From Candidatus Uhrbacteria bacterium (GTDB lineage Bacteria > Patescibacteriota > Patescibacteriia > UBA9934 > GWF2-40-263), in the NCBI GenBank assembly GCA_016219925.1, contig JACRJU010000013.1, positions 980-64,979 of the forward strand: a DNA stretch of 64,000 nucleotides, written 5' to 3'. Shown here in pieces: positions 3,804-52,206 of this stretch (its first letter is position 1; every line of letters begins with the position of its first letter). Made by a program: the position numbers and the translations under genes. The notes below the pieces were generated by a model. It was not told the DNA's origin. It ran no database searches and saw only the letters and a list, made by a program, of their open reading frames with translations.

Positions 3804-4895
3804 CTATCTTCTAGCGACTTTCCGATAATACTGCCCGCCATCATGCCTGATCATTTCACGCATTTCAAGCATGGTGATTGCGCTGCTGACGTGTGCACTG
3901 GGAAGTTGCGTTTGTCGGATGACTTCATCGATATGATGGGGGACGGTCTCAAGGGCCTGTAAAACGAGACGTTCGTCTTCGTTGCTGGGGATATAACTTG
4001 AGGCCTGTTCAGGCCCGTCTGCTTCCTGTAGGCCGAAGATGTCCGAGGGTTTCGTTACAGGGATCGCTCCCATCTTGATCAGATTATTTGGACCTTCACT
4101 CAAGGGCGAGGTGATTGGTCCGGGCACGGCGTAAACGTCGCGACCGCCTTCCAAAGCGGCGCGCGCGGTGATGAGCGAACCGGATTTGAGCGCGGCTTCA
4201 ATCACAAGGGTGCCATGGCACATGCCCGCGATAATTCGGTTGCGGATAGGGAAGTGATGTTTGAGAGGGCTGGTGCCAAAGGGAAATTCCGAAATCAAGG
4301 CCCCGCCTCTTGCGAGAATGTGCGAGGACAGTGCGCGGTGTTGAGAGGGATAAATACTTTGAGCATCAACGCCGTTTCCAAGGACAGCGACGGTGGTGCC
4401 GCCGGCGTCCAAACAGGTTTGATGCGCGCAGGCGTCGATGCCGTAAGCTAAACCGCTGACGATCACGACCCCTAAACGAGACAAGGGCTCAATGAGCGTT
4501 CGGGCAACGTCTTTTCCATAGCCGCTGGCTTGCCGCGATCCGACCACGGCTAAATGTTTGCGGGTGGGATCGGGGAGTTCACCGCGCACAAACAGGACCG
4601 CCGGCGGATCATAGAGGGTTTTGAGGATCGGCGGGTAGTCTTCGTCTTTCAGAGTGATGGCGCGCGCTCCTTCCGTGTTCAGTCGTTCTAACTCGACTTG
4701 AGGATCAAGATGAATGCGCTCTTGCAGGAATCGGTGAGCCGGTTCCGGTTCAATGCCAGCTTCGAGCAGATCCGTCACCGAAGCTTCGAAGACCGATTTC
4801 ATCGAAGAGAATCGTCGCGACAGTTTAAGCATTCGAACCGGTCCAAAACCGCTAAACCGCGCAAGCGCAAGCCAATATCCGAGATCCTCGCGCAT
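3804..4895 (-). CDS. dprA: DNA processing protein DprA (Smf)
   Basis: Rossmann-like DprA core: AVVGSRQASGYGKDVARTLIEPLSRLGVVIVSGLAYGIDACAH...VAVLGNGVD. Confidence 0.88.
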   Translation of the reverse strand: MREDLGYWLALARFSGFGPVRMLKLSRRFSSMKSVFEASVTDLLEAGIEPEPAHRFLQERIHLDPQVELERLNTEGARAITLKDEDYPPILKTLYDPPAVLFVRGELPDPTRKHLAVVGSRQASGYGKDVARTLIEPLSRLGVVIVSGLAYGIDACAHQTCLDAGGTTVAVLGNGVDAQSIYPSQHRALSSHILARGGALISEFPFGTSPLKHHFPIRNRIIAGMCHGTLVIEAALKSGSLITARAALEGGRDVYAVPGPITSPLSEGPNNLIKMGAIPVTKPSDIFGLQEADGPEQASSYIPSNEDERLVLQALETVPHHIDEVIRQTQLPSAHVSSAITMLEMREMIRHDGGQYYRKVARR

Positions 4896-8813: not shown

Positions 8814-10061
8814 TTGCAAACAGACACCTTTTATTTTATGCCCGAACAAACTCCTTCCTTACCGCCTGTTGTTTTGCATGCGCTTTCAGGCGCAGTGGGC
8901 GCCCTTGTTATTCTGGTCGTGCTTTGGAGCTTGGCCTCCCAGGGCATTTTGCTAATTCCAACAGCATCGCAAAATCCAACCACGTCTAACCCCTCTGCCC
9001 AAGCGCCAAATGTCACCGCGATGGATGTCAGCGATGTCGTTTCCAAAATCAATCCCGCGGTTGTTTCGATTGTCATCACCAAAGACGTCCCCGTGCTCGA
9101 ACAATATTATGAGGATCCGTTCTCTCAATTTTTTGGCGGAAACTCTTCGTTCCATTTCCGTATTCCCAAGTATCGGCAGAATGGGACTCAACAAAAAGAC
9201 GTCGGAGGCGGGTCTGGGTTTTTTATCTCACGAGACGGCTATGTGGTCACCAACGCGCATGTCGTAAGTGACAAAGAAGCCCAGTACACCGTGTTTTCCA
9301 ACGAGGAAAAAAAGTTTGATGCCAAAGTGGTGGCGGTTGATGACGTTCTAGATATCGCTCTTTTGAAAGTGGAAGGAACAGATTTGCCATTCCTTACTTT
9401 CGGTGACTCGGATCAGGTGCGCTTGGGCCAAGCGGTCATTGCGATCGGCAACGCTCTTGGAGAATTTCGCAACACGGTTTCAACAGGAGTCATCTCCGGG
9501 CTTTCGCGATCCATTGTCGCCTCTTCCGGTCTGCAATCGCAAGAAAATTTGGACAATGTGTTTCAGACGGACGCGGCAATCAACCCGGGCAATTCCGGCG
9601 GCCCGCTTGTGAATTTGGCTGGCGAAGTCATCGGAGTCAATGTGGCGATGGCCTCAAATTCGGAAAACATCGGATTTTCTCTTCCGGCCAATGCGGTCAG
9701 ACAATCCGTGGAGTCGATGAAAACAAACGGCCGAGCGATTCGTCCGTATCTTGGAGTGCGTTATGTCCCAGTGACCGACGCGTTGAAAACACAAAATCAT
9801 TTGAGTGTTGATCATGGAGCGTTAGTTTTGAGGGGTCAGAAAAAAGGAGACCTTGCGGTGATTCCTGGTTCTCCCGCGGATAAAGCCAGTGTAGAAGAGA
9901 ATGACATCATTTTACAGATCGATGGAAAGGATATTGATGAAAAATATTCGCTCACCTCGCTCATTCGGGAGAAAAAGGTCGGCGATGAGGTGTCCCTTAA
10001 AATCCTCCATGACGGTGCGGAAAAGACAATTCGCGTGAAACTGGAAGAATCACCGCAGTAG
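8814..10061 (+). CDS. HtrA/DegP-family trypsin-like serine protease with C-terminal PDZ domain
   Basis: N-terminal TM. GGGSGFFISRDGYVVTNAHVV (His), DIALLKV (Asp) and GNSGGPLVN (Ser) motifs. PDZ (GALVLRGQKKGDLAVIPGSPADKASV). Confidence 0.9.
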   Translation: MQTDTFYFMPEQTPSLPPVVLHALSGAVGALVILVVLWSLASQGILLIPTASQNPTTSNPSAQAPNVTAMDVSDVVSKINPAVVSIVITKDVPVLEQYYEDPFSQFFGGNSSFHFRIPKYRQNGTQQKDVGGGSGFFISRDGYVVTNAHVVSDKEAQYTVFSNEEKKFDAKVVAVDDVLDIALLKVEGTDLPFLTFGDSDQVRLGQAVIAIGNALGEFRNTVSTGVISGLSRSIVASSGLQSQENLDNVFQTDAAINPGNSGGPLVNLAGEVIGVNVAMASNSENIGFSLPANAVRQSVESMKTNGRAIRPYLGVRYVPVTDALKTQNHLSVDHGALVLRGQKKGDLAVIPGSPADKASVEENDIILQIDGKDIDEKYSLTSLIREKKVGDEVSLKILHDGAEKTIRVKLEESPQ

Positions 10062-10438: not shown

Positions 10439-10466
10439 CCGACCGCCTGACTGGTCGGTTTTTTTG
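10439..10466 (+). terminator. rho-independent terminator
   Basis: CCGACC-GCCTGACT-GGTCGG hairpin followed by TTTTTTT. Confidence 0.6.
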
Positions 10467-10526
10467 TTCCCTTGCCCTGTTGCCACCCCCCTTTTTTTCT
10501 GTTATGCTGGAAACGATTTTGACTTT

Positions 10527-11129
10527 ATGCCCAATAGCCTGACTGAAGAACAACTCCAGCAGAGATTTGGACCGATCGCGGGCTCTCTCCTTTTTTTCGT
10601 CTTCGAGGTGGTTCAGATTGTTCTTATTTCCGCTGCGATTATTATCCCGATCCGATACTTTTTGATTCAGCCTTTTTATGTGAAAGGGGCGAGCATGGAA
10701 CCGAATTTTTTCGATCATGAGTATTTGATCATTGATGAACTCTCGTATCGTTTTGGGCATCCAGAGCGCGGCGAGATTGTCGTGTTCCGCTATCCGCGCG
10801 ATCCCTCACAGTTTTTTATCAAACGGGTGATCGGTTTGCCCGAAGAGACGGTGGAAGTGGGAGACGGACATGTGGTCGTCTATACGAAAGAACATCCCAA
10901 TGGAGAGGTGCTCGAGGAACCCTATCTGGACGGGGTGCGAACAGGAGGAACGGTCCGTGCCACCCTTGGGGATGATGAATATTATCTGATGGGAGACAAT
11001 CGAGGGGAAAGTCTGGACTCACGCATCTTTGGCTCGGTGAAACGTTCGGCGATCATCGGACGCGTCTGGTTCCGGGGATTACCGCTTTCGCGTATGAGAA
11101 CCTTTCAAGCTCCATCCTATAATCTCTAA
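10527..11129 (+). CDS. lepB: signal peptidase I
   Basis: S26 motifs: GASMEPNF (Ser box), RGEIVVF, and GDNRGESLDSRIFG (box E). Start is at ATG 10527 (MPNSLTEEQ). The 10464 TTG start of the track ORF overlaps the upstream terminator. Confidence 0.88.
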   Translation: MPNSLTEEQLQQRFGPIAGSLLFFVFEVVQIVLISAAIIIPIRYFLIQPFYVKGASMEPNFFDHEYLIIDELSYRFGHPERGEIVVFRYPRDPSQFFIKRVIGLPEETVEVGDGHVVVYTKEHPNGEVLEEPYLDGVRTGGTVRATLGDDEYYLMGDNRGESLDSRIFGSVKRSAIIGRVWFRGLPLSRMRTFQAPSYNL

Positions 11130-12598: not shown

Positions 12599-12841
12599 GT
12601 GGTAGAAGTGAAACGAAAGAAAACCGAAAGCTTTGAAAGCTTGCTACGCCGATTCAGCCGTCGCTTGCAACAGAGTGGAAACGCTCTTGAAGCGCGCAAG
12701 ATCCGATTCTTCGCGGTTGACCCCAACAAGAATAAACAGCGCGCCAGCGCCCTGCGCCGAAATCAGATTCGCCTCAAGCGCGAATACTTGGAGCGCATCG
12801 GTCAGCTCAAGGATGAGCCCCGCAAAACCGGTCGCCGCTAA
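12599..12841 (+). CDS. rpsU: 30S ribosomal protein S21
   Basis: GTG start with AAGGAG 10 nt upstream. VEVKRKKTESFESLLRRFSRRLQQSG...KREYLE matches the S21 pattern. Confidence 0.88.
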   Translation: MVEVKRKKTESFESLLRRFSRRLQQSGNALEARKIRFFAVDPNKNKQRASALRRNQIRLKREYLERIGQLKDEPRKTGRR

Positions 12842-12850
12842 CGTGTCTGC

Positions 12851-13618
12851 GTGACACGCCCTGATATGTCTCTTGCAAACCGCATCAGCGATGACATGAA
12901 GGAGGCCATGAAAACCAAAAACAGCGCAACGCTTTCCACGTTGCGTTTGTTGCGTTCCGCGATGAAGAACAAACAGATCGATGTTCAACATGAATTGTCT
13001 GATGAGGAAATTTTAGCGGTCATCAAAACATCCGTGAAACAACTGCGCGATAGTATCGAATCTTTTGAGAGCGGCGGTCGGCAAGATTTGGCGCAAAGCG
13101 CGCGTGGGGAAGTGATCGTCCTTGAAGCTTACTTGCCTGCACAGCTTACAGATGAACAGCTTGAAAGGATGGTGAAGGAAGCCATCACACAGACGGGGGC
13201 AACCAGTAAACAAGACATGGGCAAGGTGATGGGAGCGGCCGTCAAGGCGGTTTCTGGCGGGGCAGATGGATCGCGCATCAAACAGATAGTCGAAAAATTT
13301 TTGCCGGTTATCGTTTTGGTCGGACTCACAGGTGTGCTGGTCGTTCATCCGGCACAAGCCGCCATTGATATCTTGCCGGTCCAGCTTTCGCAGTATTCCC
13401 TGTTTGAGACACTTGTGCGGATCTTGCGCGTCTTGCTCTTGTGGTTTGGCGTGCTCGCGATCAACATGATTTTACACGGCGGGTTTCTTTACATGGTGTC
13501 TTCCATGCGCGATGAGAACCATGCCAAAGCGTGGACTAAAATTGCAACAGGATTTTTGACTTCCTTGGCAATCGTCTTTTTGTATGGGATTGCGACAATT
13601 GTGATTGAAGTCATGTAG
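12851..13618 (+). CDS. GatB/YqeY-domain protein fused in-frame to a C-terminal signal-peptide plus two-helix pilin-like (tentatively TrbC/VirB2-like) membrane module
   Basis: Residues 1-150 match the YqeY domain (ANRISDDMKEAMKTKNSATLSTLRLLRSAMKNKQID...). From EKFL|PVIVLVGLTGVLVVHPAQAA onward the sequence is hydrophobic. It contains HGGFLYMVSS...AKAWTKIATGFLTSLAIVFLYGIATIV, homologous to the N-termini of the next two genes. Confidence 0.7.
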   Translation: MTRPDMSLANRISDDMKEAMKTKNSATLSTLRLLRSAMKNKQIDVQHELSDEEILAVIKTSVKQLRDSIESFESGGRQDLAQSARGEVIVLEAYLPAQLTDEQLERMVKEAITQTGATSKQDMGKVMGAAVKAVSGGADGSRIKQIVEKFLPVIVLVGLTGVLVVHPAQAAIDILPVQLSQYSLFETLVRILRVLLLWFGVLAINMILHGGFLYMVSSMRDENHAKAWTKIATGFLTSLAIVFLYGIATIVIEVM

Positions 13619-13646: not shown

Positions 13647-13683
13647 AGAAAGAAAGAAGAATAAACCTTCTTTCTTTTTTTTC
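13647..13683 (+). terminator. rho-independent terminator
   Basis: GAAAGAAAGAAG-AATAAACC-TTCTTTCTTT hairpin followed by a T-run. Confidence 0.6.
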
Positions 13684-13744
13684 ACTTACGCTATCCACAC
13701 GTCCCTACTCTCGTCACTGCAAATGCGCTAAAATAGGAGCAGAC

Positions 13745-15598
13745 ATGCAGTGCATCCGCATGAAATTCAAAAATCGAGCAGCGGCAGCGTTAGGTGTGCT
13801 GTCTTTTTGCGTTCTCGGATTGATCGTTTTAGGACATCCGGCTTTCGCGCAGGATTTCTTGAGTCAGTCTGCGCAGACCTCTGGACTTCCACAGACAGAT
13901 TTGATCGTTGTGATTGCTCGTCTCATTCGGGCGTTTCTCGGAATTCTCGGGATTATTTTTGTCGTTTTGGTTATTTATGCGGGATACCTGTACATGACTT
14001 CTCAAGGTGATCCCACAAAAACAGCAAAAGCCAAAAAAATTATCAGCCAGGCCGTCATTGGCCTTATCATCATCTTGGCTTCCTTCGCGATCGTTTCTTT
14101 TGTCTTGGACGCTCTGTTAAAAAAGCCGAACGGGCAGATTAAGAGTTCACCGCCGGTGGAAAAGTATTATGAGCCGCTTTCCGGCGCCCTTGGGGCCGGT
14201 ATTGTTGAGAGTCATTACCCGCCACGCAACGCGTACGACATTCCGCGTAACACGAAAGTTTTCATCACTTTTAAGGAACCGATTGATCCGGCGTCCTTAA
14301 TCGATGGGTACAAGAAGGCACTCAGTGAAAAAGATCCGAATCAAGCCAAAGTCCTCAACACGACAAACGTGTGGTTGTATGAGACGGCAAAAGGGAAGGA
14401 CAAAAAATTGGCTTCGGTAGCCGTGAATGTCGCCACTAACGAAAAACACACGATTTTCGTTTTTGACCCCGTGGATCTTTTGGGAGATTCGGCGCAAAAC
14501 ACGAACTACACCTTCTCGCTTCAATCGGGGATTAAAAAGGATGATGGGAAAAATGCCTTTACCGGGGTGTATGCTTCCGGTTATGAGTGGACGTTCCAAG
14601 TCTCGACGAAACTTGATCTCACTCCACCGAAGGTAATTTCGGTTATTCCAAAACAGGACGCCAATGAACCCCGTAATACGACCATCGAAATTCAGTTCAA
14701 TGAAGCGATGGATCCAATTGCTTCTGCCGGTTCTTACCTTATCGGTATCGGTAAAGATCCCTTGTTCACCAACATCGCGGTCCTTGGGGCGGGACCAAAA
14801 AATGTGGAGGGGACGTATGAGATTAGTAGCGGATATCAAACGGTAGGGTTTACCACGACTGACGCGTGTGCGAAGGATCCTTGCGGTGACACGATCTATT
14901 GTCTTCCCGGTAATCAAAAATTTAGTGTCACGGCACGCGCGGCCACGCTTGATCCCTCCAGTCCTCCTCAAGCAAAGTTGGAAGGAGTTTCTTATGATGG
15001 ACTTACGGATGCCGCTGGCAACTCCCTTGACGGAAGTGGCGATGGCATCGCCTGTGGCTCGGATCAAGACAAGATCGCCTGCGCGGGTGGCGCGGCCAAC
15101 GACAATTATGCCTGGGGGTTCACCACAACCGCTGAGGTCAATAGCACGGTTCCGCAAGTGACCACGCTGACCCCCAGCGTGGATGGAGAAAATATCGATC
15201 CTAACAAGCCGATCGAGATTGGAGTGAGCACAGCGGTCAAATCATCGAGTGTGAACAGCAACACCGCGTCGCTTTGGCCGGATCCTCTCTATAAAGATAA
15301 ACAAGGGAAGATGTTTGCCATGTGGTTTGATCCTGACGCGGACAATTCAACCGGAAAAGGTTTGATTTCCATTGGACACCCGGCGTTTATCAGCAATGCC
15401 GAGGGAGGGTATGAGTACTATCCGGTTTTGACGCAGGGGATTAAGAGCGCGTATCAGATTTGTTTGTATCCAGCCACCCAACAGGGCGGGGCTTGCAATG
15501 GCGCGGATTCAACACAGCCCTATTGTTGCAACGGGAAGCCCTCGGCTGGTCCGTGCAAGACGAAAAAGGCTAAGGGGATTTTGCCGGGTAACGAATAA
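13745..15598 (+). CDS. secreted or cell-surface protein. N-terminal signal peptide plus pilin-like two-helix module, then Ig-like (SbsA/Big-type) domains and a Cys-rich C-terminal tail
   Basis: AGGAG RBS 6 nt upstream. Signal peptide ...LGHPAFAQ. LIRAFLGILGIIFVVLVIYAGYLYMTSQGDPTKTAKAKKIISQAVIGLIIILASFAIV module. LTPPKVISVIPKQDANEPRNTTIEIQFNEAMDP Ig-like repeats. Confidence 0.8.
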   Translation: MQCIRMKFKNRAAAALGVLSFCVLGLIVLGHPAFAQDFLSQSAQTSGLPQTDLIVVIARLIRAFLGILGIIFVVLVIYAGYLYMTSQGDPTKTAKAKKIISQAVIGLIIILASFAIVSFVLDALLKKPNGQIKSSPPVEKYYEPLSGALGAGIVESHYPPRNAYDIPRNTKVFITFKEPIDPASLIDGYKKALSEKDPNQAKVLNTTNVWLYETAKGKDKKLASVAVNVATNEKHTIFVFDPVDLLGDSAQNTNYTFSLQSGIKKDDGKNAFTGVYASGYEWTFQVSTKLDLTPPKVISVIPKQDANEPRNTTIEIQFNEAMDPIASAGSYLIGIGKDPLFTNIAVLGAGPKNVEGTYEISSGYQTVGFTTTDACAKDPCGDTIYCLPGNQKFSVTARAATLDPSSPPQAKLEGVSYDGLTDAAGNSLDGSGDGIACGSDQDKIACAGGAANDNYAWGFTTTAEVNSTVPQVTTLTPSVDGENIDPNKPIEIGVSTAVKSSSVNSNTASLWPDPLYKDKQGKMFAMWFDPDADNSTGKGLISIGHPAFISNAEGGYEYYPVLTQGIKSAYQICLYPATQQGGACNGADSTQPYCCNGKPSAGPCKTKKAKGILPGNE

Positions 15599-15738: not shown

Positions 15739-18700
15739 ATGAAGTTTTCTTTTCGATCATTAATTAAAGGATTTCTGCTCGCCCTGGCCGGCGCGGGTGC
15801 GCTCTTGGCGCTTCCCGCTCTTGCTCAGGTTGATCTTGGAGCTCTGAAAGCGTTTGGAGAGGCGGCGGGGTTCAGCACCGGCCCTTCCGTCACGCTTATC
15901 ATCGCCCGACTGATTCGCACCGCGCTTTCGTTCGTCGGGATTGTGGTTGTGATCATGGTTGTTTACGGAGGATTTTTGTACATGACGTCCGGCGGCAATG
16001 CCACACGTCTTGAAAAAGCCAAAAAGATTTTGATTCAAGCGGTCATCGGACTCCTGATCGTCCTTTCCTCGTTTGTGATTGTGCAGTTCATCATTTCTCG
16101 CATGGTGGAAGCAACCGGGGGAGGGGTTTCTTCATCGCAAAGCGGTCCGGGCGACTATCCAGATGGAACCACTCTGACATCGTTTCATCTCTCTTCGGTT
16201 AATACCCAGTGTGCTGCAGCTCTGAATAATTTACAGCTTCAGCTCGTTTTTTCAAAGGACGTAAATCCAGCAACGGTCTCGGCGGCGCTCGGCATCAAAA
16301 AACAAGGGGGCGGACCTGTCGAAGGAACGTTTGTTACAAGCGGCAGTCTCGTAACATTTACCCCATCGACTTCCTGTCCGGCACCGAATCCTCAAGCGAA
16401 ATGTTTTGATCCAAATGCTCAGAGTGCAACTTACAATCTCGTCGTGAATGCCGGTGTCTTGAAATCATCAAGCGGCGCAACGCTGAAGTGTACGACTGAA
16501 TTCCCGTGTTCGTTTACGTTTACCACAGGGACGGGAGTTGATGTGGCGGCTCCGACACTCTTCATGAGCGCTCCGGGCGACGGACAGTCTGTGGCCGCTG
16601 GGACGATTCAAATGTTGCAGGCAAAAACGCAGGATGACACCGGCGTTTCGAGCGTTGATTTTTATGCGGTGAATGACGACAGTCCTCTATTTACGTCTGG
16701 TTTAAATCTCTCGACCGCTGGGACGATTGTTGGTGGCAACCAGAACAATGCGTTTTCCACCGATCCCCAGCTCCAGTGGAATACCGCCGGTTACACCATA
16801 AACAAGAGCTATCCGCTTTGGGCGCGCGCGCTCGATTGCGCGGGTAATGCAACGGTTTCTACCAAAATTTCCGCGATGGTGAGAGGACCTAATTGCGACA
16901 ATGACGTCCAGGACGTTGATTTGGGCGAGACGGGTGTGGATTGTGGAGGCGATCCCGTTTCGGAATTTTATTGCGGAAAGTGTGATGAGCAAACCTGTAC
17001 GCAAAATAATGAGTGCGCTTCGGGTTTGTGTGAAAATGGAGTCTGCGTCAGCAAGCCACGCATTGATCAAGTTTCTCCCGGCGATGGAAAATCGGGGAAC
17101 CTCGTGACGATTTTTGGAGACGGATTTGAGGACGTAGGTGGAACGGTGACGTTTCTTGGAGGCGCGAGCGTGAGCACATCGGCGTATGCGTGCAACGGAA
17201 ATGTTTCTTGGAAAAAGAAGCAGATCGTGGTTCAGGTGCCGGAGGGAGCGCAAGATGGTCCGATTGAAGTAGCGACCGTTGGAGCAAAGAAAAAAACCGA
17301 TCGAACGGATGATGCGTTTGGTCCCCTTTCATCAGATTTTGATATCAACGCCGTTGCCCGTCCTGGATTATGTCTGGTAGATCCCGGCACCGCCAAGCCG
17401 GGAGCGCAGGTCAGCTTTTTCGGGTTAGGTTTTGGGGCCGTTCAGGGAGCTTCGAGCCTCTATTTTAAAGATGTCGTTTCGCCTTCTATTGTTTCTTGGG
17501 CCGATAAGCTCGTCAAAGGGGCTGTTCCAAACATGAATGCCGCTCCGATTACGACGCAGATTTTTTCTGGAACGTATCAGTGTGTGGATGACAAATTGCA
17601 ACAGATCGGCAAAACGTGTCAGCAGGATGAGGAGTGTGGAGAGGGGAACACCTGCGCAAAGAAATGGTGCACGGAAACGCTCGCTTATTGTTCGGACGAT
17701 GTCTCATGCGGGGTGCAAGGAGGCAAATGTCGCAGTGTCCGCGTTGGATCCAATGGTCTCAATTTCGTCGTTGGATCGTCAGCGGGCGACACGGAAAAAC
17801 CGGTGATCACTTATCTGGATTCAGGATGGTCTTCTTGCAACGGTGGGGCCAATAATGGAAAACATTGTGGCACGAAAGCGGATTGTGGTGATGGGGAATG
17901 TAAGGGCGCCCCTAACTGGGGACCTTCCGATCAGTATGTCACCATTTTTGGCACAGGCTTCGGGACGGCTAAGGGTCAAGTTTTCTTTACGAATGCCGCC
18001 GGACAAACCGCTCTTGCCAAAACGAATTTTCCGGAAATCTGTGGCGATGATTTTTGGAAGGATACGAGCGTGACGGTGAAAGTTCCGGACAGTCTTCAGG
18101 CGGGCGGGGCTGTGGACCCGGGAAATTATCAAGTGACGGTCAAAAAAGGGCCGGTCAGTTCCAATGGCGTAGATTTTGTCGTTGTGAAAGATCAACCCGG
18201 CCCGGCGATTTGTCATATTGATCCTCTCTCCGGTCCGGTCACGACGACGAAGGTTCAGGTATTTGGAGAAAATTTGGGAAATGAAAAAGGGGCGATCGCT
18301 TTTTACGATAAACAAAATGCGGATTATCTTTTCTGGAATTCAACGCAAGTGACTGATGCGGTCGTCCCCAAGGAAGCCAAGACCGGTCCTTTGGCCGCTG
18401 TTTCAAAAGTCGGTTATCGGTCCAACCCTGTATCCTTCACCGTTGGAAGTTGTCAGGAAAATGTCTCCTGTCCGGCCAACACGCAGTGCTGCGGGGACGG
18501 TTCCTGCAAAAAATCCTGCAACTTTATCCCGCCTGTTGCCAATTTTGCCTACCGAGTCTCGACAGGTTTGATCCCCAAAGCTCCGCAGATTCTTCCGTTG
18601 TGCAACGATAACGTGAAATCGCCAAGCCCGTGGGAATCGTGGCCAGATTCAAAAACCGTCTGTCGAAATTCGGTTGTTACAGCGACGTTTGATTTGATGA

Positions 18701-21700
18701 TGAATCAGGATTCGCTCAAGAGTCATGTCGCCGTCGAACAGTGCACGGACTTGCAAGCGGATGGATGCAAGGCGTGGCAAGCCGCTGAGGGGAATATGGT
18801 CACAAGTGAGACCACGTTTAACTGGACGCCAAACGTATTGTTTGCGGCCGCGACGCGTTATCGCGTTACAGTTGCCGGGGGAGAGGGCGGTGTGCAGTCG
18901 CACGCGAGTGTCGGCGGGGCGTTTATGGAGGAAGATTACTCGTGGGAGTTTTTAACAGCGCCTGGAGATCAAGTGTGCGATGTGGGTGGGGTGAACGTCA
19001 CGCCTTACACCTTTACGGCTGTCGAGGATGAGCAACAGGTTTCCTATCTGTCTCAACTCGTCGCGTCGGGATATCAGTGCGTGACCATTTCCTGCCAAGG
19101 CCAAAATATCAGTTGGTCATCTAACAAACCGGTTGCGGAAGTGCAACAGCCAAGCGTTGGAGTTGGACAATGCAAAGAGCAGGTGATTGCCCATGAAGAA
19201 ACACAAGGCGATCCGGCCAAAATTAAAGCGACCGTCTTGAATGCGGATCAACAGCCTTTCGATACCGGCGATCTGTTTATCAATTTTACCGATCCGACCG
19301 TTTCGAGTTTCTTCCCGCAATGTGCGACCGCGTGCGTCAATGCCAAACCGTGGGCGCGCTTTGGGGCGAAGATGAATCCAGGGAGTTTTGCTCAAGGAGT
19401 TTTGCTCTATGAGTGTGAAGACGCCATTTGCGGACCAGGTAAAATCAAAGACGCGGGACTCTTAAAGTCAGTGAGTTATGTAGATGACACGCGGACGCTT
19501 TTTGTTGAACTTTCAGGGAAAATGAAACCCGATAAATGGTATCGCGTGGTGTTGAAGGGGACGATATTGAAATCAATTTCTGGGGTTTTTCTGAAAGATT
19601 CGGGTTCTAACTTCGGTTCGGATCAAAACAAATTTTTCCCATCAGATTTTTCCTGGCGTTTTAAGACCAAGGTTTCGGATGTGAGCTGTGGAGTCGATTC
19701 GGTCTCGGTTATTCCCAAGACGACGATTTTGAAAACCATTGGAGCGCGAGAGCAATATCATGCGACGACATACGGCGCACCAGACGACTGTGATGCTTCG
19801 GGACAAGCGCTTCAGGACACGGGGTACACCTGGAAGACTTGGACAGCGGCGGATCTACAACCCGAACTCTTTACGCCAGCCCAAGGAGGCACCTCGCAGG
19901 ATGTGGCGTTCATGCTTAAAAATGGAGCGATTTCTCTTTCAAACAAGATGCCCCTTTGGTGCTCGCCGGTGTGTCTAAACACAGGCAGTCAGATCAATGC
20001 GAAAAAAGCGCTTTGTGGCGATGGGGTCGTCAATGGTCCTGGAAAAATCCCATCGGAAGAGTGTGATGGGGGAGCCTGGTGTTCCAGCAGTTGTTTGCTT
20101 ATCGGGACAAACGCGTGTGCCGCTGGTGTTGCGGCAAGCTGCTGTGGCAATGGGGCGGTAGATCCCGGTGAACAGTGCGACGATGGCGGACATATTCCAG
20201 GCGATGGCTGTTCGGACGTTTGTTTGAATGAAGGTTCGGCTTCGATTGGTTCCGTGTGTGGCGATGGCGTGATCGATTTTGCGCCGGGCACGGGAGGGGA
20301 AGATTGCGACGACGGAAACACGAAAGACGGTGACGGATGCTCATCCAAATGTTTGTTTGAAGGATCGATCGCGAAGGTTGCGGATTTTTCTGTGTGCGGC
20401 AATGGCGGCAATCCCGAAAAAGGAGAAGATTGCGATGATGGAAACAATATCAATGGAGACGGTTGCAGTGCGAGCTGTTTGAATGAAGGAACCGCACAGT
20501 GTGCTTTAGTCTGTTCGGATACGCAGGCAAGTTGTCAAACTAAACTGGACTGCGCAGTTGGAGCGGTTTGTGCTCCGGCGAAAACGCCCTGTTGCGGCAA
20601 TGGCGGCAATCCTGAAAAAGGAGAAGATTGCGACGACGGGAACGCGAAATCCGGTGATGGATGCAAGAGCTCGTGCTTGAAAGAAGGTTCTTCCGTTAAT
20701 TATGTCGTTCCATCTTTCTGTGGGGATGGGAAAAAAGAAACGGGAGAGGAATGTGAAGCGGATGGGAATCTCATTGGTCAAGCCTTTAAGATCGTGGGAT
20801 ATGGAGTCGCACAAGTAGGGAGTAAAGCCGCCAAAGAAGTTTCTCCTGAGGGCTATGCGGTTTCGACGATTACCGCAACCGCAGAGGGGATTCCCGGAAC
20901 AGCGACGCTTCAGGTGGAGTGTTCCTGCAAAACTGACGCTTCGTGCGGTGACACCAGTCTTTATGCCTGTGGCACAAGTGGATGCTGTTATCCGCGTCCG
21001 GATGTGACGGTTTTTGAGCCGTCAGGCAATGGACCTGGGGGTCAGGGATTTTGCCGTAATACCGCCGTACGCGTGAAATTCAATCAACAGATGGATCCGG
21101 TTTCTTTCGGCGCGCTCGATGCCGACGGCAATGGTTCGATTGATCAAAATGAGCTTGCGAATATTCGTTTGGAACTGGTCAGTAACAATGGCAACGACAG
21201 TGAAAATAATGAGAAAAATTGTCCGACCGACTATTTGTTTGCACAAGCGAATTCTTCACAAGAATCTGTGTTGGCGCGATTGTGGCACTGGGTAGAGCGG
21301 ACCGTTCAAGGGTTTTTCGGTCATGAGGCGCAAGCCGGCGATCCGAAAAAATGTGTTGCTCCCATTTCTTATCAAGCGGTCAATGCCAATGACGGACAAT
21401 GGGTGTATCTCACCTTGAATGCCCCTCTGGAAAAAAATTCCACGTATCGCATTCGCGTGGTGGGGGATACGGATCCAAGTGATACCAAGACCCAAGGTGT
21501 GAAAAGCGTGGATGGAGCCGACGCCTGTTTTGGGCCAGGATGTGCGACAGGATACAAGTCAGCCACGTTTAAGACAGGAAACGAAGTATGCTTACTGGAC
21601 GCGGTGACCATCGAAGACGTTGAAAAGATCGGCGCGGCGCCCTATGAGCCTCCAAGTCCAGCCTTCTTCACCAAGCTTAATGAAGAGCATCGATTCCTTT

Positions 21701-24700
21701 CGCAAGCGCAAACGTATCGCGCGGGTTTGGGAACATATGAACCGATCGTACCAACCAACATCTATGGGTGGAGCTGGGAGTGGGGATCCTCTGTCGCAGA
21801 CGATAAAACGAAACCAGAAGACATCGTTGATCTGACCTCACAGAAAAATCCGCCAGATCCAGGAATGGAAGGTCGATTGGCTGCCGTCGGCCATAATGGT
21901 TCTGAACATGTGCTCGCCAGCGCGGTCGTCAATAAAGATACGCTCAATAATCCCACCACGATTGGAACGGAAAAAGGCACCGTGGCCGGTACGCTTGAAG
22001 TCACCGCGCTCACCTGTGAAAATCCGTGGCCGGAACCGGATCCCCTTACTGGTTGGAAGCCTTATCTTGAAAAAACCGATCCGGCCAAGCCGTCTAACTT
22101 CGGTTTCTATTACTGTCGCGACCGAGGCGATCAAGGAACAGGGGATGACCTGCCTCCTTTGGATCCGCCGGTTGATGTGACTTCCATTGCGGTTGGCGGA
22201 CTTTTGCAAGAATTGTTCTTCAAGGTTCAAGGCACGCCAGATGCGATTGGGGTGCGCGTTTTCCAGAACCCGAATTATCTCTCGCCGGCCGCATGGTTTA
22301 AGTCGCAAAAGTTTACTGGAGCGTTTGGGCCGATTCAAATGGACGGTTATGAAGGCATTCAATCCGGCAATACCGCCTATGTGGCCGCGGCCAACGAGCA
22401 TGGGGTTGTTCTCTATCCGAATATTTACGTGATTTCTTACAATCCTAGCGCTGGAAGCGACGCCCGAGCGATTTTTGAAGAAATTTTGAAGAACTGGCGG
22501 TTCAATGCCAACACGAACGAAGTCAGCAATGTGAATCTGTGTCGGATTGGCAACAAATACATCAAGGACGACAGTGAAAATTATGTGGCTTGTTCTTGGG
22601 ATGGAGATTGTGTGGAGGCGCTGGTCGATGGGCAATGCACGGTTTCGCATCTCAAGGAAGAGGCTCTGGCTCTGTGTCCTTTGGCTCCTGAAAAGAAAGC
22701 CCTGTGTGATAGCGATAAGGCCAAGATTCAGCGCGACATGAAGCGCCTCACTGACATCACACAACAAGTCACAACCTTGGACGCCTATGGAGGCAAGAAT
22801 CGCCATTGTTCAGTAACGAAAACGCAATCATGCAGTGTAAACGAGCAGTGTCCGGGAACCGAGAAATGCGTTGCGGGATATCCCACCATTAAACAAGGCA
22901 CGTTCGTTCCTGCGATGAGCGTGAGCAAATGGGGGTCGTGGAACGCATCGTTCAGCAATGAGCTGGGCAGTGCCGTGCCTATTGATCCCCTCAATGTCTT
23001 TTGGCGATCCTGCTCGACCCTTGGTCCAAAGTACGATCCGGCAACCTGTTTTAACAGTATGGAAGGAAAATTTGTCTGTCCGAATCAATCTCATGTTTAT
23101 GCTTACCAAAACAAGGGTGGAGAAGCCTATACCTTGTTTACGCAACTTGAATTTATCGGGGCGCCATGGGTGTTTGATATTGATCCGTTTGAGAACGACG
23201 CCGCAACGATTGTCGCCGAGTACCCAGCCGGCGCAAACGTCCCGGGCCAGATGAAGAAGGGCTTTGCCCCGGCTCCAGTCTTTTGTTCGGATCAAAAAGT
23301 TTGGGGGACTTCCACCTCCTGCGGTGATGGAGTCGTTGGGGCTCAAGAGATCTGTGAGCCCGGACAGATACAGTCGGCTCCATGTACCGTGAGCGTAAAC
23401 GGTCAGCTAAAAAATGGGTTCATCAATGTAGGATGTCGTTCTGATGTGACGAAGCCAAAGGCCTGTCAAGAATATCAAACAGCGGACGAGGCCAAGATCG
23501 CGGGCGCGGTGTGTGTGCCCAACCAGTGCGGCAACGGTATTTTGGAAACAGGAGAACAGTGCGATGACGGAGCGCTCAACGGAACGTACGGACATTGTGG
23601 GAAGAGCTGTACTTTTGCGGGGTCTTTTGTGTGTGGGGATGGTTATTTAGCAGGAGGGGAACAGTGCGATTGCGGAACCCTTATCAATCACGCCGCTGTT
23701 GTAGCCGATCCCACGAGCTGGGCCGCGAAGAACAAAAATCAAAACCAAATCTGTTTCCAAGCGAACGGGCAATATAGTCCACTTCCAAATGGTTCCTGTT
23801 CATTTGATTGCAAAATCCCCGGACCATCCTGTGGAGATAAACTCGTAAACGGTGCCGAACAATGCGATGGCACAATGGAGACGTATGCAGGCAAACTTTG
23901 TCCAGACGGAAAAACCACCTGCGAAACAAATAACGATTGTCCTGGAAATGGAGTGTGCGGAGATCCTGGTCACATCGCGTGTCCTGCCAGTAGTCATGTG
24001 TGTGTTGGAGGAAACAAGGCCGGACAGAGCTGTACTCAAAATCAACAATGTGGAGCAGGAACCTGTTCAACCTTCAGCTACCCACTCACCCGCACGCGTC
24101 TTTGTACCAATGCCTGCACCTGGCCGGGATGGTCTGTTTGTTTGGGAGGAGATCAGATCTGCGGTAATGGGACAAAAGAAGGAACGGAAGAATGCGATGA
24201 CGGAAACCAAAACGATAACGATAGTTGTACCCACACGTGTAAGAAAAATATTTGTGGGGATAGTTATAAATTTGACGGGGTCGAAGCCTGCGACAATGGT
24301 GGGCAAAACGTGTTGCCTGACAGCCAAAACCCCTGTACGGCCCAGTATGGCGGCTCGTGCAATTACTGCAATACCCTGTGTCAATACAAGACCTTTTCTG
24401 GATCCTATTGCGGTGACGGGGTCATCAATGGAACCGAATTTTGCGATGGGAGCGCGATTCCGTATTCTTGTTTGAAAGTTTCCGGGTCGGATCGTTCGAG
24501 AGCAAAGAGCTGTCCGGCGACAGATGCCCTTGCCAAAGGGCCTTGCGATCAGGGCTTTACCTGCCAGCTGACGGGTGTGTGTAATGGCGGAACCCAAAAC
24601 GGTCAGCCTTGTACGCTCAAACCTCCAGCCAAAACAGTGGCCCAGTATACGGCTTCATCCAATCAGGCGGCGTGTGCAGGCGGGGGCGTCTGTGTGGCGC

Positions 24701-25911
24701 CGACTTGCACGAAAGACTGTACGGCGGCGTGTCCGTTTACGCTACAAACCACAAGTGTGCTTGTGCAAAGCGAACTGCCGGATGCTCAGCCACAGGAGAG
24801 CGTTGATCTCTACAGTTATTTCAACAAGGAAAAAAATTCTCCAGACAGCGCATCGCTTTTCTTGCCGGCGTGTAGCGTTGGAACACGCATCAGCGCGGAT
24901 GTTGATGACGCAAACGTCCATGAGCCTGATGTGGATGTGGTTTTCGTAACGGATCTTTCTGGAAGCATGATGGATGCGCCAAACGGCGGCGGGGCTGTGG
25001 TCCCAAACCGTCGCATCGACATTGTTGCGGAATCGACCGCAGAAGCCATTGATACGCTTTTTAATGCGTATGCGGGTTCTGAAGGGAAATTGCGCATTGG
25101 ACTTGTCAGTTTTGGGCAGAAGGATGATCCGGCAACACCGGTAAATGAGGAGATAACCGCGCAGTTAAATTCTGGGCTCCTTGAAAACTCGGGCGCAAAT
25201 AAACAACTTCTAAAATCCATCGCTCTTGGGTATCCAGCAAAAGTGGATGGGTGGACGCCAACTCCCGCTGGAATAAAAAAAGCCATTGAAGTTTTATCAA
25301 CCGAGCCCGACTCCCACGTAAAGGTCGTTGTTCTTCTTTCGGATGGAGATCCGACTTACGCTTTGGATCAAAAAAGTTGTGGCGATAAAAAGAACATCTC
25401 CGTTACGACAGAAGCCGGCCAGAAAACTCTTTCAGGAAGTCATTACTGTGTTGCTGAAGCTCGTTATGGTCCGCCAGGAGGTCCATCGATGATTAAAGGT
25501 CACTCAGAAATTTTCTTCTATTCCGCCGCGATTGCCACCTCAAATGATTTGCGAGCGCAAATGGAGCACATGTCAAGTATGGGATGTGCGGGGAATGATA
25601 TGTCTAGCATAGATGACTGCCAGGATGGCTTGTATGCTTTTGATGCAGACACCAAAGAAGAGATCAAACAGATGTACGATCAAATCATGACGTCTATCTT
25701 AAGTGCAACGACAACGATCACCGCTTCGAAGAATGGTTCGGTGAAATCCGCAACCGGACTCACTCCAGTGGGCAACAATGTGACCATTCCCGTTCCTGAT
25801 ACCTTCCAGTGCCAAAGTCAACCATTCACCATGCCGATGAAAACGAATTTCTATGGAACCGGCACGATGAAATTTAGCAACTTTAGCTTTACGTATTGTC
25901 CGTTGCCTTAG
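15739..25911 (+). CDS. giant (~3,390 aa) cell-surface adhesin-like protein. Pilin-like N-terminal module, multiple IPT/TIG-Ig domains, Myxococcus-type Cys-rich repeats, C-terminal von Willebrand factor A domain
   Basis: First ATG is at 15739 ([30 protein letters not shown]). The track TTG at 15694 lies inside the palindrome. Module: [65 protein letters not shown]-like: [44 protein letters not shown]. Cys repeats: [28 protein letters not shown] (x5-6). vWA MIDAS: [12 protein letters not shown] ... [12 protein letters not shown]. Confidence 0.85.
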
Positions 25912-25916
25912 CCCTT

Positions 25917-26669
25917 ATGGATCTCAATGACTATCAATCCCCCGCGCGTCGGTTTACCCCCAAACAACTTGCTTTGATTGCAGGCGGGGTCATTTTGGCT
26001 GTGGCGATTGTGGTTCTGGTGGTTGTTTGGATCAGGTCGCGCGCCTCAATCAATCGTCCAAGTCTCCTACAACAGTCGCGGGCAACGATCGAACAAACAT
26101 GTACCGATGCCAGCGATCCGGAAGCTTGTCGGATTGAGCAGACCAAACAGGCGGCCGAGCAGAACAGTCAAAGCAAACTCTGTTTGGATTTACCCGATGC
26201 GGATAAAGATGGATGCTATTGGGAGCTTGCCGTCAAGCAACAGGATTTGAAAACGTGTGGGGAGATCAAACAGGAAACGTATCGCGCTCTTTGCACGGAT
26301 GAAGTCGCTCGCGACCAAGCGATAGCCTCAGGGACGCCGTCGCGGTGTGATATGATTAAAGATGTCCAGCAACGCGAGGGTTGTCATCAAGCTCTTGAAC
26401 CAAAAGTCGATAGTGCTTTTGAAGCAAAGGTTTTGGAAGCCAATCAAAAACAAGATCGGAACCTGTGTGATGTTTTTGAAGGAGATCAAAAACAGGATTG
26501 CAAAGAGCGCGTGCTCATTGATGATCCGGATTTTGATGGCCTCGCCACCGAGCAAGAGGTGCAGGTGTACGGAACAGATCCGCGCAAAGCGGACACAGAT
26601 GGCGATGGGTACAATGATGCAGATGAAATTGCCGCGGGGTATAATCCGCGTGGCGAGGGTAAGCTTTAA
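25917..26669 (+). CDS. single-TM membrane protein with a Cys-rich ectodomain and C-terminal TSP3-like Ca-binding repeats (paralog 1 of 3)
   Basis: TM IAGGVILAVAIVVLVVVWI. C-terminus GTDPRKADTDGDGYNDADEIAAGYNPRGEGKL. ATG 25917 is preferred over 25896, which overlaps the end of the giant gene. Confidence 0.65.
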   Translation: MDLNDYQSPARRFTPKQLALIAGGVILAVAIVVLVVVWIRSRASINRPSLLQQSRATIEQTCTDASDPEACRIEQTKQAAEQNSQSKLCLDLPDADKDGCYWELAVKQQDLKTCGEIKQETYRALCTDEVARDQAIASGTPSRCDMIKDVQQREGCHQALEPKVDSAFEAKVLEANQKQDRNLCDVFEGDQKQDCKERVLIDDPDFDGLATEQEVQVYGTDPRKADTDGDGYNDADEIAAGYNPRGEGKL

Positions 26670-26679
26670 TTTTTCGCCT

Positions 26680-27315: not shown

Positions 27316-27320
27316 AGATT

Positions 27321-51757: not shown

Positions 51758-51877
51758 GTCACAACGATCCCTTCTGCCCACTGCGTCTTCCAACCGGTGG
51801 GCGCTTTTTTTTGTCAGACATTTGTGACTTTTAGTCAAAAATTGCCGTTTTTATTACAAAATACGCGTTTGGATGGC

Positions 51878-51906: not shown

Positions 51907-51934
51907 AATCTGTTCCCAAAATGAGGGAATGGAT

Positions 51935-52195: not shown

Positions 52196-52206
52196 AGGAG
52201 GAAAAG

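What the first reader, a model, noticed from the sequence alone, without database searches (positions are those of the whole stretch)
12851..13618. In-frame fusion of a YqeY/GatB-domain protein to a complete pilin-like module that carries its own embedded signal peptide
Residues 1-150 are a canonical cytosolic YqeY/GatB_Yqey domain. Without any stop codon the ORF continues into …PVIVLVGLTGVLVVHPAQAA|IDILP…, which has the same hydrophobic-core-plus-AxA cleavage-site pattern as the next gene (…LGHPAFAQ) and the giant gene (…LALPALAQ). It then continues into the homologous HGGFLYMVSS…AKAWTKIATGFLTSLAIVFLYGIATIV two-helix module.

So a complete secretory pilin-like unit is appended to a cytosolic domain. 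Three explanations are possible.
- A real fusion, which is topologically odd.
- A small pilin gene whose separate start was lost, or an internal TTG/GTG start used within the same frame.
- A sequencing error that removed a stop.

Three consecutive genes (12851, 13745, 15739) sharing this module implies local duplication of the module.
Basis: seen in the sequence. Interest (0 to 1): 0.7.

Follow-up and report, generated by a model that had tools for sequence, protein, structure and literature searches.

The report
Conserved YqeY–pilin-like fusion with internal signal peptide
In one clade of ultra-small bacteria (Candidatus Uhrbacteria), a cytoplasmic protein of unknown function (YqeY) is joined in a single gene to a small membrane pilin-like protein that keeps a signal-peptidase-type cleavage motif, so one gene probably yields two products; this architecture is real and conserved but does not appear in the papers I could search.

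Summary
ORF 12851/12866–13618 encodes a complete YqeY domain (Pfam E 2e-48). It runs without a stop into a hydrophobic segment, an A-x-A motif and a two-helix hairpin.

It is not a sequencing error. More than 110 protein clusters and about 30 genome species, all Ca. Uhrbacteria/Patescibacteria, carry the same ~250-aa fusion at 41–73% identity and in the same gene order: lepB–hisS–rpsU–fusion–617-aa pilin/Big_5 gene–giant gene.

The tail is a divergent T4SS_pilin/VirB2-like module. A profile of the tails hits the PF18895-bearing N-termini of both neighbouring genes, but the tail itself is below Pfam threshold.

Across 115 orthologues:
- position −1 is Ala in 115;
- position −3 is A/V/T/S in 114;
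- the flanking columns are highly variable;
- the apolar run is short (median 15 residues);
- AlphaFold is unstructured only at this site.

No internal start codon is conserved. A rough tree suggests the fusion arose once. Three nested lineages appear to have re-split it, and both halves stay intact in each.

Best reading (about 0.6): YqeY stays in the cytoplasm, the internal signal peptide spans the membrane, and signal peptidase I releases an ~85-aa pilin-like hairpin. Cleavage is inferred, not shown.

Novelty: a new variant of known kinds. Interest: moderate.

The parts
10464..11129 (+). lepB, signal peptidase I (Peptidase_S26). It lies three genes upstream and is syntenic in relatives. It is the candidate enzyme for the A-x-A site.
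   Evidence: Pfam PF10502 E 9.5e-39. The same position is kept in L001, L003 and the P0054 contig.
12599..12841 (+). rpsU (ribosomal protein bS21), the usual upstream partner of yqeY.
   Evidence: Pfam PF01165 E 2.6e-5, 24.3 bits, just under the gathering score. The same gene sits upstream in relatives. The rpsU-yqeY operon is noted in PMC12054373.
12866..13618 (+). The fusion gene. The likely start is ATG 12866; the longest ORF starts at GTG 12851. Residue numbers below count from 12851.
   Evidence: P0001 is 100% identical, 250 aa.
12878..13303 (+). Complete YqeY domain (residues 10-151), predicted to be cytoplasmic.
   Evidence: PF09424 E 2.3e-48, profile 2-143/143. Solved YqeY structures 8xjg (E 1.9e-30) and 1ng6 (E 2.3e-28). 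AlphaFold pLDDT is >90 over most of the domain.
13298..13360 (+). Internal signal-peptide-like segment (residues 150-170: FLPVIVLVGLTGVLVV-HPAQA). It has an apolar h-region and a polar c-region ending in A168-x-A170. Predicted SPase I cleavage lies between nt 13360 and 13361.
   Evidence: Position -1 is Ala in 115/115 and -3 is A/V/T/S in 114/115. Entropy is 0 bits at A170 against 2.5-3.5 bits in neighbouring columns. The apolar run has a median of 15 aa and the c-region a median of 5. AlphaFold pLDDT is <50 only at residues 168-173.
13361..13414 (+). Variable N-terminal linker of the putative mature pilin-like product (residues 171-188), predicted to be extracytoplasmic.
   Evidence: Mean pairwise identity 0.25. 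Low to medium pLDDT.
13415..13615 (+). Two-helix hydrophobic hairpin (residues 189-216 and 232-255) with a short polar loop, SSMRDENHAKAWTK. This is a T4SS_pilin/VirB2-like module.
   Evidence: AlphaFold helices 177-216 and 221-254 with pLDDT about 90-97. R193, G200 and A170 are invariant; G210, F212, R220, D221, G234 and T249 are nearly invariant. 10/37 orthologous tails hit PF18895, best E 7.8e-4. The tail HMM hits the neighbouring modules.
13647..13689 (+). Terminator-like hairpin (13-bp stem followed by a T run) directly after the fusion gene. It may end the rpsU-yqeY::pilin transcription unit.
   Evidence: This is a consensus scan only, not evidence of function.
13745..15598 (+). 617-aa paralogue: N-terminal signal peptide (…GHPAFA|Q), a T4SS_pilin hairpin and Big_5 Ig-like domains.
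   Evidence: PF18895 E 4.2e-9 (36.8 bits, above the 26.6 cut-off) and PF13205 E 1.4e-16. NCBIfam NF045849 43.2 bits, above the cut-off of 40.
15739..25911 (+). Giant (~3390-aa) surface protein with the same module at its N-terminus: signal peptide (…ALPALA|Q) plus T4SS_pilin hairpin.
   Evidence: PF18895 E 9.2e-7 (29.3 bits) on the first 269 aa. Syntenic giant genes are present in relatives.

Best explanation
This is a real gene fusion, probably made once near the base of a Ca. Uhrbacteria clade. yqeY, the partner of rpsU, read through into an adjacent small VirB2/T4SS_pilin-like gene. That small gene lost its start codon and its basic n-region; the basic C-terminal helix of YqeY (R142, K144) now occupies that position. 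It kept its apolar h-region, its polar c-region ending in A-x-A, and its two-helix hairpin.

Predicted biogenesis is as follows. The YqeY domain folds in the cytoplasm. The internal signal peptide inserts N-in/C-out. The hairpin follows, going out-in-out. Signal peptidase I, encoded three genes upstream, cuts after A170. One ORF would then give two products: an ~85-aa mature pilin-like hairpin with both ends outside, and YqeY carrying a ~20-residue hydrophobic C-terminal tail. That tail is probably too short to be a stable anchor, so YqeY would be held at the membrane transiently or released.

Shown: the architecture, its conservation, the conservation of the motif, the lack of a conserved internal start, homology of the tail to pilin modules, and the split variants. 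Inferred: the topology, the cleavage, the fate of YqeY, and a single origin with three later splits (this rests on a rough tree). The selective value is most simply fixed 1:1 co-expression, or a near-neutral read-through. A new joint biochemical activity is not required.
For: - Conservation: 1454 homologues were found. The top ~114 are full-length ~250-aa fusions at 43-73% identity. About 30 GTDB species representatives carry the fusion, and gene order is conserved.
- Motif: -1 is Ala in 115/115 and -3 is A/V/T/S in 114/115. The -2 position is bulky and variable. Entropy is zero at A170 inside a 2.5-3.5-bit region.
- Signal-peptide anatomy: apolar run median 15 aa, c-region median 5, and a polar or charged residue within -8..-2 in 96/115. 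Bona fide N-terminal signal peptides of the paralogous downstream genes end in the same A-x-A|Q/A type of site.
- Structure: AlphaFold gives pLDDT 89 overall. The only stretch below 50 is residues 168-173, the proposed cut site.
- No conserved internal start or SD.
- Tail homology: the tail HMM hits neighbouring pilin modules at E 1e-6 to 6e-16. It also hits 2860 cluster representatives, mostly 110-150-aa proteins made of a signal peptide plus a hairpin.
- Split variants: in the NJ tree of the YqeY domain the fused genes form one clade, with three split variants nested inside it. Both ORFs stay intact in each. L036 has a regenerated canonical signal peptide, VALA|A. L001 and L032 have the signal peptide deleted. 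The two halves can therefore exist as separate polypeptides.
- Divergence of the two halves is correlated (r 0.65), as expected for co-inheritance.
Against: - There is no experimental evidence of cleavage or topology.
- Signal peptidase I cleavage behind a 150-residue N-terminal domain is rare in bacteria.
- Two conserved arginines (R190, R193) sit on the predicted outer side of hairpin helix 1. This is mildly at odds with the positive-inside rule, although the same motif occurs in the paralogues that have normal signal peptides.
- The signal-peptide-less split variants (L001, L032, P0125, P0132) show that the hairpin may not need a signal peptide. The A-x-A conservation could therefore serve another purpose.
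- +1 is also mostly Ala (82%), so the constraint may be wider than a peptidase site.
- The tail does not reach the Pfam gathering score for PF18895.
- No VirB4 or other T4SS gene was found among the window ORFs that I scanned.
Confidence: 0.6

Rival explanations
1. The fusion is an uncleaved three-helix membrane protein. The pilin-derived module has been recruited only as a membrane anchor. It holds YqeY, an RNA/tRNA-binding-type domain linked to bS21, flush against the inner face of the membrane, for example to place a translation-related factor next to the Sec machinery that exports the adjacent giant surface proteins.
For: AlphaFold predicts the last YqeY helix (140-163) to run directly into the hydrophobic segment with no linker. 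The fusion has been kept across a whole clade. In the paralogous neighbours the same hairpin plausibly acts as an anchor for large extracellular domains. YqeY is reported, preliminarily, to bind OLE RNA (PMC12054373); from my own knowledge, not checked here, that RNA belongs to a membrane-associated RNP in Bacillota.
Against: An anchor has no need for an invariant Ala at -1, a small residue at -3, or a polar c-region. The apolar run (median 15, as low as 8) is short for a stable transmembrane helix. Three lineages separated the halves, and two of them deleted exactly this segment, leaving YqeY soluble.
Confidence: 0.25
2. Two proteins are made by internal translation initiation. Ribosomes start at an in-frame TTG/GTG near codons 151-156 (nt 13301 or 13316) and make a normal prepilin. 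The full-length fusion would be a minor or irrelevant read-through product.
For: In-frame TTG codons exist at 13301 and 13316. All 31 loci have some ATG/GTG/TTG codon in this region. L036 shows that a separately initiated small gene is viable.
Against: No candidate start is conserved in position: each column is a mix of synonymous start and non-start codons. An SD-like motif precedes a candidate in only 4/31 loci and not in the window. A product starting at L151 would lack the basic n-region that all paralogous signal peptides have. This mechanism would not explain why the stop codon stays absent in >110 clusters.
Confidence: 0.08
3. This is an assembly or sequencing artefact, or a recent pseudogene-type read-through in this one genome. 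A missed stop or indel would have joined two separate genes.
For: A few relatives (L001, L032, L036) do have the two parts in different frames, so a one-base difference can switch between the two states.
Against: The same in-frame fusion is found in >110 independent 90%-identity clusters from NCBI, JGI, ENA and Logan assemblies, and in ~30 species representatives. The tail is under purifying selection, with invariant R193, G200 and A170 and mean identity 0.45.
Confidence: 0.01

Closest known systems
YqeY family (Pfam PF09424; B. subtilis YqeY PDB 1NG6, and 8XJG/8XJE), related to the C-terminal domain of GatB
   Same: Residues 10-151 match the full-length profile. The sequence is strongly similar to solved YqeY structures. 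The gene sits directly after rpsU, as in many bacteria.
   Different: The ordinary YqeY proteins seen here are ~146-153-aa proteins that end where this one continues: the stand-alone relatives, and the solved chains. The one other fusion found in the literature search is to GlnRS in Deinococcus (PMC1865053). Here ~105 membrane-embedded residues follow. The precomputed Pfam annotation of all listed homologues shows only the YqeY domains (PF09424, in some also PF02637), so the tail is unannotated.
VirB2-like / T4SS_pilin (PF18895, PF04956 TrbC) proteins and their multi-gene arrays in Patescibacteria (PMC12102498)
   Same: The tail has a signal peptide with A-x-A, two hydrophobic helices and a short polar loop. 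It sits at the head of a run of three module-bearing genes whose modules are ~25-28% identical. That matches the published description of arrays of 2-11 genes with ~25% mean identity.
   Different: The window tail is below the Pfam gathering score. The 'signal peptide' is internal, behind a 150-aa cytoplasmic domain. No virB4 or other T4SS gene was found among the window ORFs I scanned. The two neighbours carry huge extracellular extensions, so they look more like anchored surface proteins than like pilus subunits.
Conjugative propilins with very long leaders (F TraA ~51 aa, VirB2 ~47 aa, RP4 TrbC ~36 aa), cut by signal peptidase I. This is from my own knowledge and was not checked here.
   Same: A T4SS-type pilin made as a precursor. 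Its N-terminal, N-in leader would be removed by the general signal peptidase, leaving a two-helix hairpin in the membrane.
   Different: The leader here would be ~165-170 residues and would itself be a complete, conserved, folded protein domain.
Bacterial polyproteins split at an internal signal peptide, e.g. Bradyrhizobium japonicum FbcH (cytochrome b-c1 precursor). This is from my own knowledge; a literature search for it returned nothing usable.
   Same: One ORF with an internal N-in/C-out signal sequence, cleaved on the outer face, giving two separate membrane-associated proteins.
   Different: In FbcH the two products are subunits of one complex. Here the halves have no known functional link, and cleavage is only inferred.

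Membership tests
YqeY (PF09424) | Full-length match to the family profile above the curated cut-off | tested here: met
   164.3 bits against a cut-off of 27; residues 10-151 match profile positions 2-143 of 143.
YqeY (PF09424) | Sequence similarity to experimentally solved YqeY proteins | tested here: met
   8xjg_A E 1.9e-30 and 1ng6_A E 2.3e-28, covering query residues 1-144.
YqeY (PF09424) | Stand-alone soluble protein of ~150 aa (the usual architecture) | tested here: not met
   The protein is 250-255 aa with three apolar segments after residue 150.
T4SS_pilin / VirB2-like (PF18895, PF04956) | Match to the Pfam profile above the gathering score | tested here: not met
   The window tail gives no PF18895 hit even at E <= 10. 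10 of 37 orthologous tails hit it weakly, best E 7.8e-4. NCBIfam NF045849 gives E 0.015, 14.9 bits against a cut-off of 40.
T4SS_pilin / VirB2-like (PF18895, PF04956) | Profile-level homology to proteins that do pass the family threshold | tested here: met
   The tail HMM scores 39 bits (E 2.6e-11) on the 617-aa neighbour, which passes PF18895 and NF045849. It scores 31 bits on the giant gene. The same holds in ~35 related loci, E down to 6e-16.
T4SS_pilin / VirB2-like (PF18895, PF04956) | Signal peptide followed by two hydrophobic helices joined by a short polar loop | tested here: met
   Hydropathy. AlphaFold helices 177-216 and 221-254. A-x-A motif.
T4SS_pilin / VirB2-like (PF18895, PF04956) | Genomic association with VirB4 or other T4SS machinery | tested here: not met
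   None of the 20 additional window ORFs scanned against Pfam matches a T4SS component; they are housekeeping and surface proteins. Many smaller ORFs in the 64-kb window were not scanned, and the rest of the genome was not available.
T4SS_pilin / VirB2-like (PF18895, PF04956) | Polymerises into a pilus or functions in a T4SS | not testable with these tools
   This needs microscopy or genetics. Foldseek against the PDB gave only non-specific helical hairpins, E >= 1.5.
Sec-type signal peptide cleaved by signal peptidase I | Basic n-region, apolar h-region of ~7-15 residues, polar c-region with small residues at -3 and -1 | tested here: met
   R142 is invariant and K144 is 96% conserved. The apolar run has a median of 15 and the c-region a median of 5. 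Position -1 is Ala in 115/115 and -3 is A/V/T/S in 114/115.
Sec-type signal peptide cleaved by signal peptidase I | Located at the N-terminus of the precursor | tested here: not met
   It starts at residue ~150, after a complete folded domain.
Sec-type signal peptide cleaved by signal peptidase I | Actually cleaved in vivo, with a signal peptidase I present | tested here: inconclusive
   A Peptidase_S26 gene is present at 10464-11129. Cleavage itself cannot be tested with these tools.

The most novel reading that the evidence does not exclude
A natural bacterial 'two-in-one' precursor. A complete, conserved cytoplasmic protein (YqeY) would serve as a ~165-residue leader of a VirB2-like pilin and be separated from it by the general signal peptidase at an internal signal peptide. 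YqeY would be delivered to the inner face of the membrane each time a pilin-like subunit is made. This would give YqeY, whose function is still unknown, a membrane-proximal role. It could possibly link the bS21/YqeY pair to the export or assembly of the adjacent giant surface proteins.
Probability: 0.3. Interest if true: 0.6.

Novelty: new variant of a known kind. Interest (0 to 1): 0.42.

Why it matters
YqeY is widespread, usually sits next to the ribosomal protein bS21 gene, and still has no assigned function. A clade in which it is permanently joined to a membrane module is a natural experiment. It shows that YqeY tolerates, or benefits from, being made at the membrane.

If the conserved A-x-A site is cut, this would be a rare bacterial case of signal peptidase I processing an internal signal peptide behind a large folded domain. 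It would also be the longest 'leader' of any T4SS-type pilin.

There is a practical annotation point as well. All the public orthologues listed carry only YqeY/GatB-type domain annotation (PF09424, in some also PF02637), and those that are named are called 'GatB/YqeY domain-containing protein' or 'uncharacterized protein'. The pilin-like half, the first member of a three-gene array of pilin-module genes, is missed.

The finding does not by itself reveal a new system. The fusion may be little more than a fixed read-through between neighbouring genes.

Tried and rejected
1. Sequencing error or missing stop: rejected because of clade-wide conservation.
2. Conserved internal start: rejected by the codon and SD tabulation over 31 loci. 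My first regular expression for this was too strict and found only 2 loci; it was redone.
3. Direct Pfam assignment of the window tail to PF18895: no hit. Homology had to be shown through a profile of the tails.
4. Sequence search of the tail profile against the PDB: no hit at E <= 10.
5. Foldseek of the tail model against the PDB: only generic helical hairpins, E >= 1.5, so uninformative for such a simple fold.
6. Tandem multi-hairpin proteins as a precedent for internal cleavage sites in this family. P0126, P0139, P0157 and P0162 have 3-6 modules but a single N-terminal signal peptide and no internal A-x-A segments, so they are not a precedent.
7. T4SS machinery in the window: none found among the ORFs scanned.
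8. Literature on a YqeY fusion in Patescibacteria: none of the ten top-ranked papers that matched at least two of the terms contains 'YqeY'. Searches for the FbcH internal-signal-peptide precedent and for the papers behind 8XJG/8XJE returned nothing usable.
9. 'Local duplication from the neighbouring gene' as the origin of the tail: neither supported nor excluded. Unrelated stand-alone pilins score at least as well.

Full report
**1. The observation**

The ORF is there as described. It runs from 12851 to 13618 on the + strand and is 255 codons from GTG. Orthologues and the identical database protein P0001 (250 aa, NCBI 'GatB/YqeY domain-containing protein [Candidatus Uhrbacteria bacterium]', contig 281,942 bp) begin at ATG 12866.

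Residues 10-151 match the whole Pfam YqeY profile (PF09424, 164 bits, 2-143/143). They also match solved YqeY structures (8xjg E 1.9e-30, 1ng6 E 2.3e-28).

Without a stop, the frame continues through three apolar segments: 150-165, 189-216 and 232-255. The tail aligns with the N-termini of the next two genes at 26-28% identity and shares the R..R, GGF.YM and KA motifs.

Two details of the finding need correcting. The (-3,-1) rule puts the predicted cut after A168-Q169-A170, giving AQA|A. The in-frame TTGs are at 13301 and 13316.

**2. It is not an artefact**

A search of 5.8 billion proteins returned 1454 homologues. The best ~114 clusters are full-length ~250-aa proteins with 43-73% identity over 92-98% of the query, drawn from NCBI, JGI, ENA and Logan assemblies.

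A scan of one genome per species found the fusion in about 30 species representatives (L004-L031, L034). These are labelled Ca. Uhrbacteria or Patescibacteria, and some are evidently mislabelled.

The neighbourhood is conserved: signal peptidase I (S26), hisS, rpsU, the fusion, a ~620-aa T4SS_pilin+Big_5 gene, and a ~3400-aa giant gene.

Both halves are under constraint. Mean pairwise identity is 0.63 for YqeY and 0.45 for the hairpin, and R193, G200 and A170 are invariant. The divergences of the two halves are correlated, r = 0.65.

**3. What the tail is**

The window tail alone is not recognised by Pfam. Even so, PF18895 (T4SS_pilin) is the top family for 10 of 37 orthologous tails, best E 7.8e-4.

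An HMM built from the tails hits the signal-peptide-plus-hairpin modules of both downstream genes in nearly every related locus, at E 1e-6 to 6e-16. In the window it scores 39 and 31 bits on those two genes and hits nothing else. The 617-aa neighbour passes the curated cut-offs of PF18895 and NCBIfam NF045849.

Against 1.84 billion cluster representatives, the tail profile finds 2860 proteins at E <= 1e-3. Most are 110-150-aa stand-alone proteins with an N-terminal signal peptide, an A-x-A site and a hairpin. Others are N-termini of giant proteins, or proteins with 3-6 tandem hairpins.

The tail is therefore a divergent member of the VirB2-like/T4SS_pilin superfamily. Multi-gene arrays of such genes are already described in Patescibacteria: 441 arrays of 2-11 genes with ~25% mean identity (PMC12102498).

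AlphaFold models the tail as a confident helical hairpin. Fold search was uninformative, as expected for so simple a fold.

**4. The junction behaves like a cleavable signal peptide**

Among 115 fused orthologues:
- the residue aligned with A170 is Ala in all 115;
- the residue at -3 is A, V, T or S in 114;
- -2 is bulky and variable (H, L, F, Q, Y);
- +1 is Ala in 94.

Column entropy is 0 bits at A170 and 1.25 bits at A168. It is 2.5-3.5 bits in most surrounding columns (159-187).

The apolar run has a median of 15 residues (range 8-21). It is followed by a c-region with a median of 5 residues, and 96 of 115 sequences have a polar or charged residue within -8..-2. That is signal-peptide anatomy and is short for a permanent membrane anchor.

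The true N-terminal signal peptides of the paralogous downstream genes end in the same kind of site, such as ALA|Q, AFA|Q and VFA|Q.

In the AlphaFold model (pLDDT 89) the last YqeY helix runs straight into the apolar segment (helix 140-163). The only stretch with pLDDT below 50 is 168-173, the proposed cleavage site.

The basic residues that a signal peptide needs upstream are supplied by the YqeY C-terminal helix: R142 is invariant and K144 is 96% conserved.

A signal peptidase I gene lies at 10464-11129.

**5. Internal initiation**

In 31 loci every candidate column between the end of YqeY and the apolar segment carries a mixture of synonymous codons. One Leu column, for example, reads CTT 10, CTC 8, TTG 7. 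No ATG, GTG or TTG is conserved in position. An SD-like motif precedes a candidate in 4 of 31 loci and not in the window. A conserved internal start is therefore not supported.

**6. History**

Other Patescibacteria have a stand-alone yqeY followed directly by the ~650-aa pilin-Big_5 gene and the giant gene. These include L035, L039, L046, L056, L059, L064 (Magasanikbacteria) and L068. This gene order is therefore older than the fusion.

In a neighbour-joining tree of the YqeY domain, the fused genes form one clade. Three split variants are nested inside it. This is a rough tree without support values. The high YqeY identity of L001 to the window (62%) agrees with nesting.

The three split variants differ:
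- In L036, yqeY ends in a stop and is followed by a separate small gene with a textbook signal peptide, MIRVGKKKITFFFSAIVFVLSAPVALA|ATSNS….
- In L001 and L032 the apolar/A-x-A segment has been deleted. A short hairpin ORF without a signal peptide follows in another frame.
- Similar 72-92-aa proteins (P0125, P0132) exist as separate clusters, so these are lineages and not single assembly errors.

In all three variants both halves remain intact. This fits best with the halves being separate entities in the mature state.

**7. Mechanism proposed**

- YqeY folds in the cytoplasm.
- The internal signal peptide inserts N-in/C-out. A cytoplasmic domain on its N-terminal side is therefore topologically normal, not odd.
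- The hairpin follows, going out-in-out.
- Signal peptidase I cuts after A170.
- This releases an ~85-residue pilin-like hairpin and leaves YqeY with a short hydrophobic tail.

I put this at about 0.6.

The main rival, at about 0.25, is an uncleaved three-helix protein in which the module only anchors YqeY to the membrane. One lead for that idea is the report that YqeY may bind OLE RNA (PMC12054373). From my own knowledge, not checked here, OLE RNA belongs to a membrane-associated RNP.

Internal initiation (about 0.08) and artefact (about 0.01) are unlikely.

What the pilin-like product does is unknown. No T4SS gene was found among the ORFs scanned in the 64-kb window. The two paralogues look like hairpin-anchored surface proteins. 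A terminator-like hairpin at 13647-13679 suggests the fusion gene ends the rpsU transcription unit (consensus match only).

**8. Comparison and novelty**

Each part is a known kind: YqeY, a VirB2-like pilin module, and a Sec-type signal peptide. The combination is not described in the searchable literature: none of the ten top-ranked papers matching the search terms contains 'YqeY'. It is also not annotated. Every listed orthologue carries only YqeY/GatB-type domains (PF09424, in some also PF02637).

The closest functional analogies come from my own knowledge and were not verified here. One is the long leaders of conjugative propilins. The other is the internal signal peptide of the Bradyrhizobium cytochrome b-c1 precursor.

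I rate it a new variant of a known kind, of moderate interest. The architecture and its conservation are solid. The cleavage and any functional coupling remain to be shown.

Noticed in passing
window 15739-25911 (+): Giant ~3390-aa protein. Its N-terminus has a signal peptide and a T4SS_pilin hairpin, followed by Big_5 and many Cys-rich repeats. Near the C-terminus there is a motif ([13 protein letters not shown]) that resembles a von Willebrand-A metal site. Syntenic giants of 3200-3430 aa occur in relatives.
   Followed up: partly
window 25896-28313 (+): Three consecutive ORFs with bacterial TSP3 (thrombospondin type 3, calcium-binding) repeats lie directly after the giant gene. The first two ORF calls overlap (25896-26669 and 26362-27315), so the gene boundaries are uncertain.
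   Followed up: no
window 48854-57536 (+): Three large ORFs (495, 590 and 724 aa) carry multiple MopE-type 'Cu-binding' Cys-rich motifs (PF11617, up to E 3e-51). A similar MopE-repeat protein lies upstream of lepB on the contig carrying P0054.
   Followed up: no
window 13647-13689 (+): Long A/G-rich inverted repeat (13-bp stem) with a T run between the fusion gene and the 617-aa gene. It is terminator-like and would separate the rpsU-yqeY::pilin unit from the downstream pilin-module genes.
   Followed up: no
P0126, P0139, P0157, P0162, P0142 (database proteins): Proteins made of one signal peptide followed by 3-6 tandem copies of the pilin-like two-helix hairpin (350-555 aa). These are concatenated 'poly-pilin' membrane proteins.
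   Followed up: partly
L001 6438-6722; L032 about 4440-4668; P0125, P0132: Signal-peptide-less versions (72-95 aa) of the hairpin, encoded as separate small genes right after yqeY. The deletion removes exactly the apolar/A-x-A segment. How these insert into the membrane, and in which orientation, is unexplained.
   Followed up: partly
L007, L010, L012, L013, L020, L025, L026, L029, L035 and others: Many contigs carrying this Uhrbacteria-type locus are titled 'uncultured Gammaproteobacteria bacterium', and one is titled 'Lentisphaerae'. Going by gene content and synteny, these record titles look like mislabels of Patescibacteria MAGs.
   Followed up: no
window 8814-10061 (+) and 32408-33568 (+): Two HtrA/DegP-like serine proteases (Trypsin_2 + PDZ) are present in the window. 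One lies just upstream of lepB, next to the exported-protein gene cluster.
   Followed up: no
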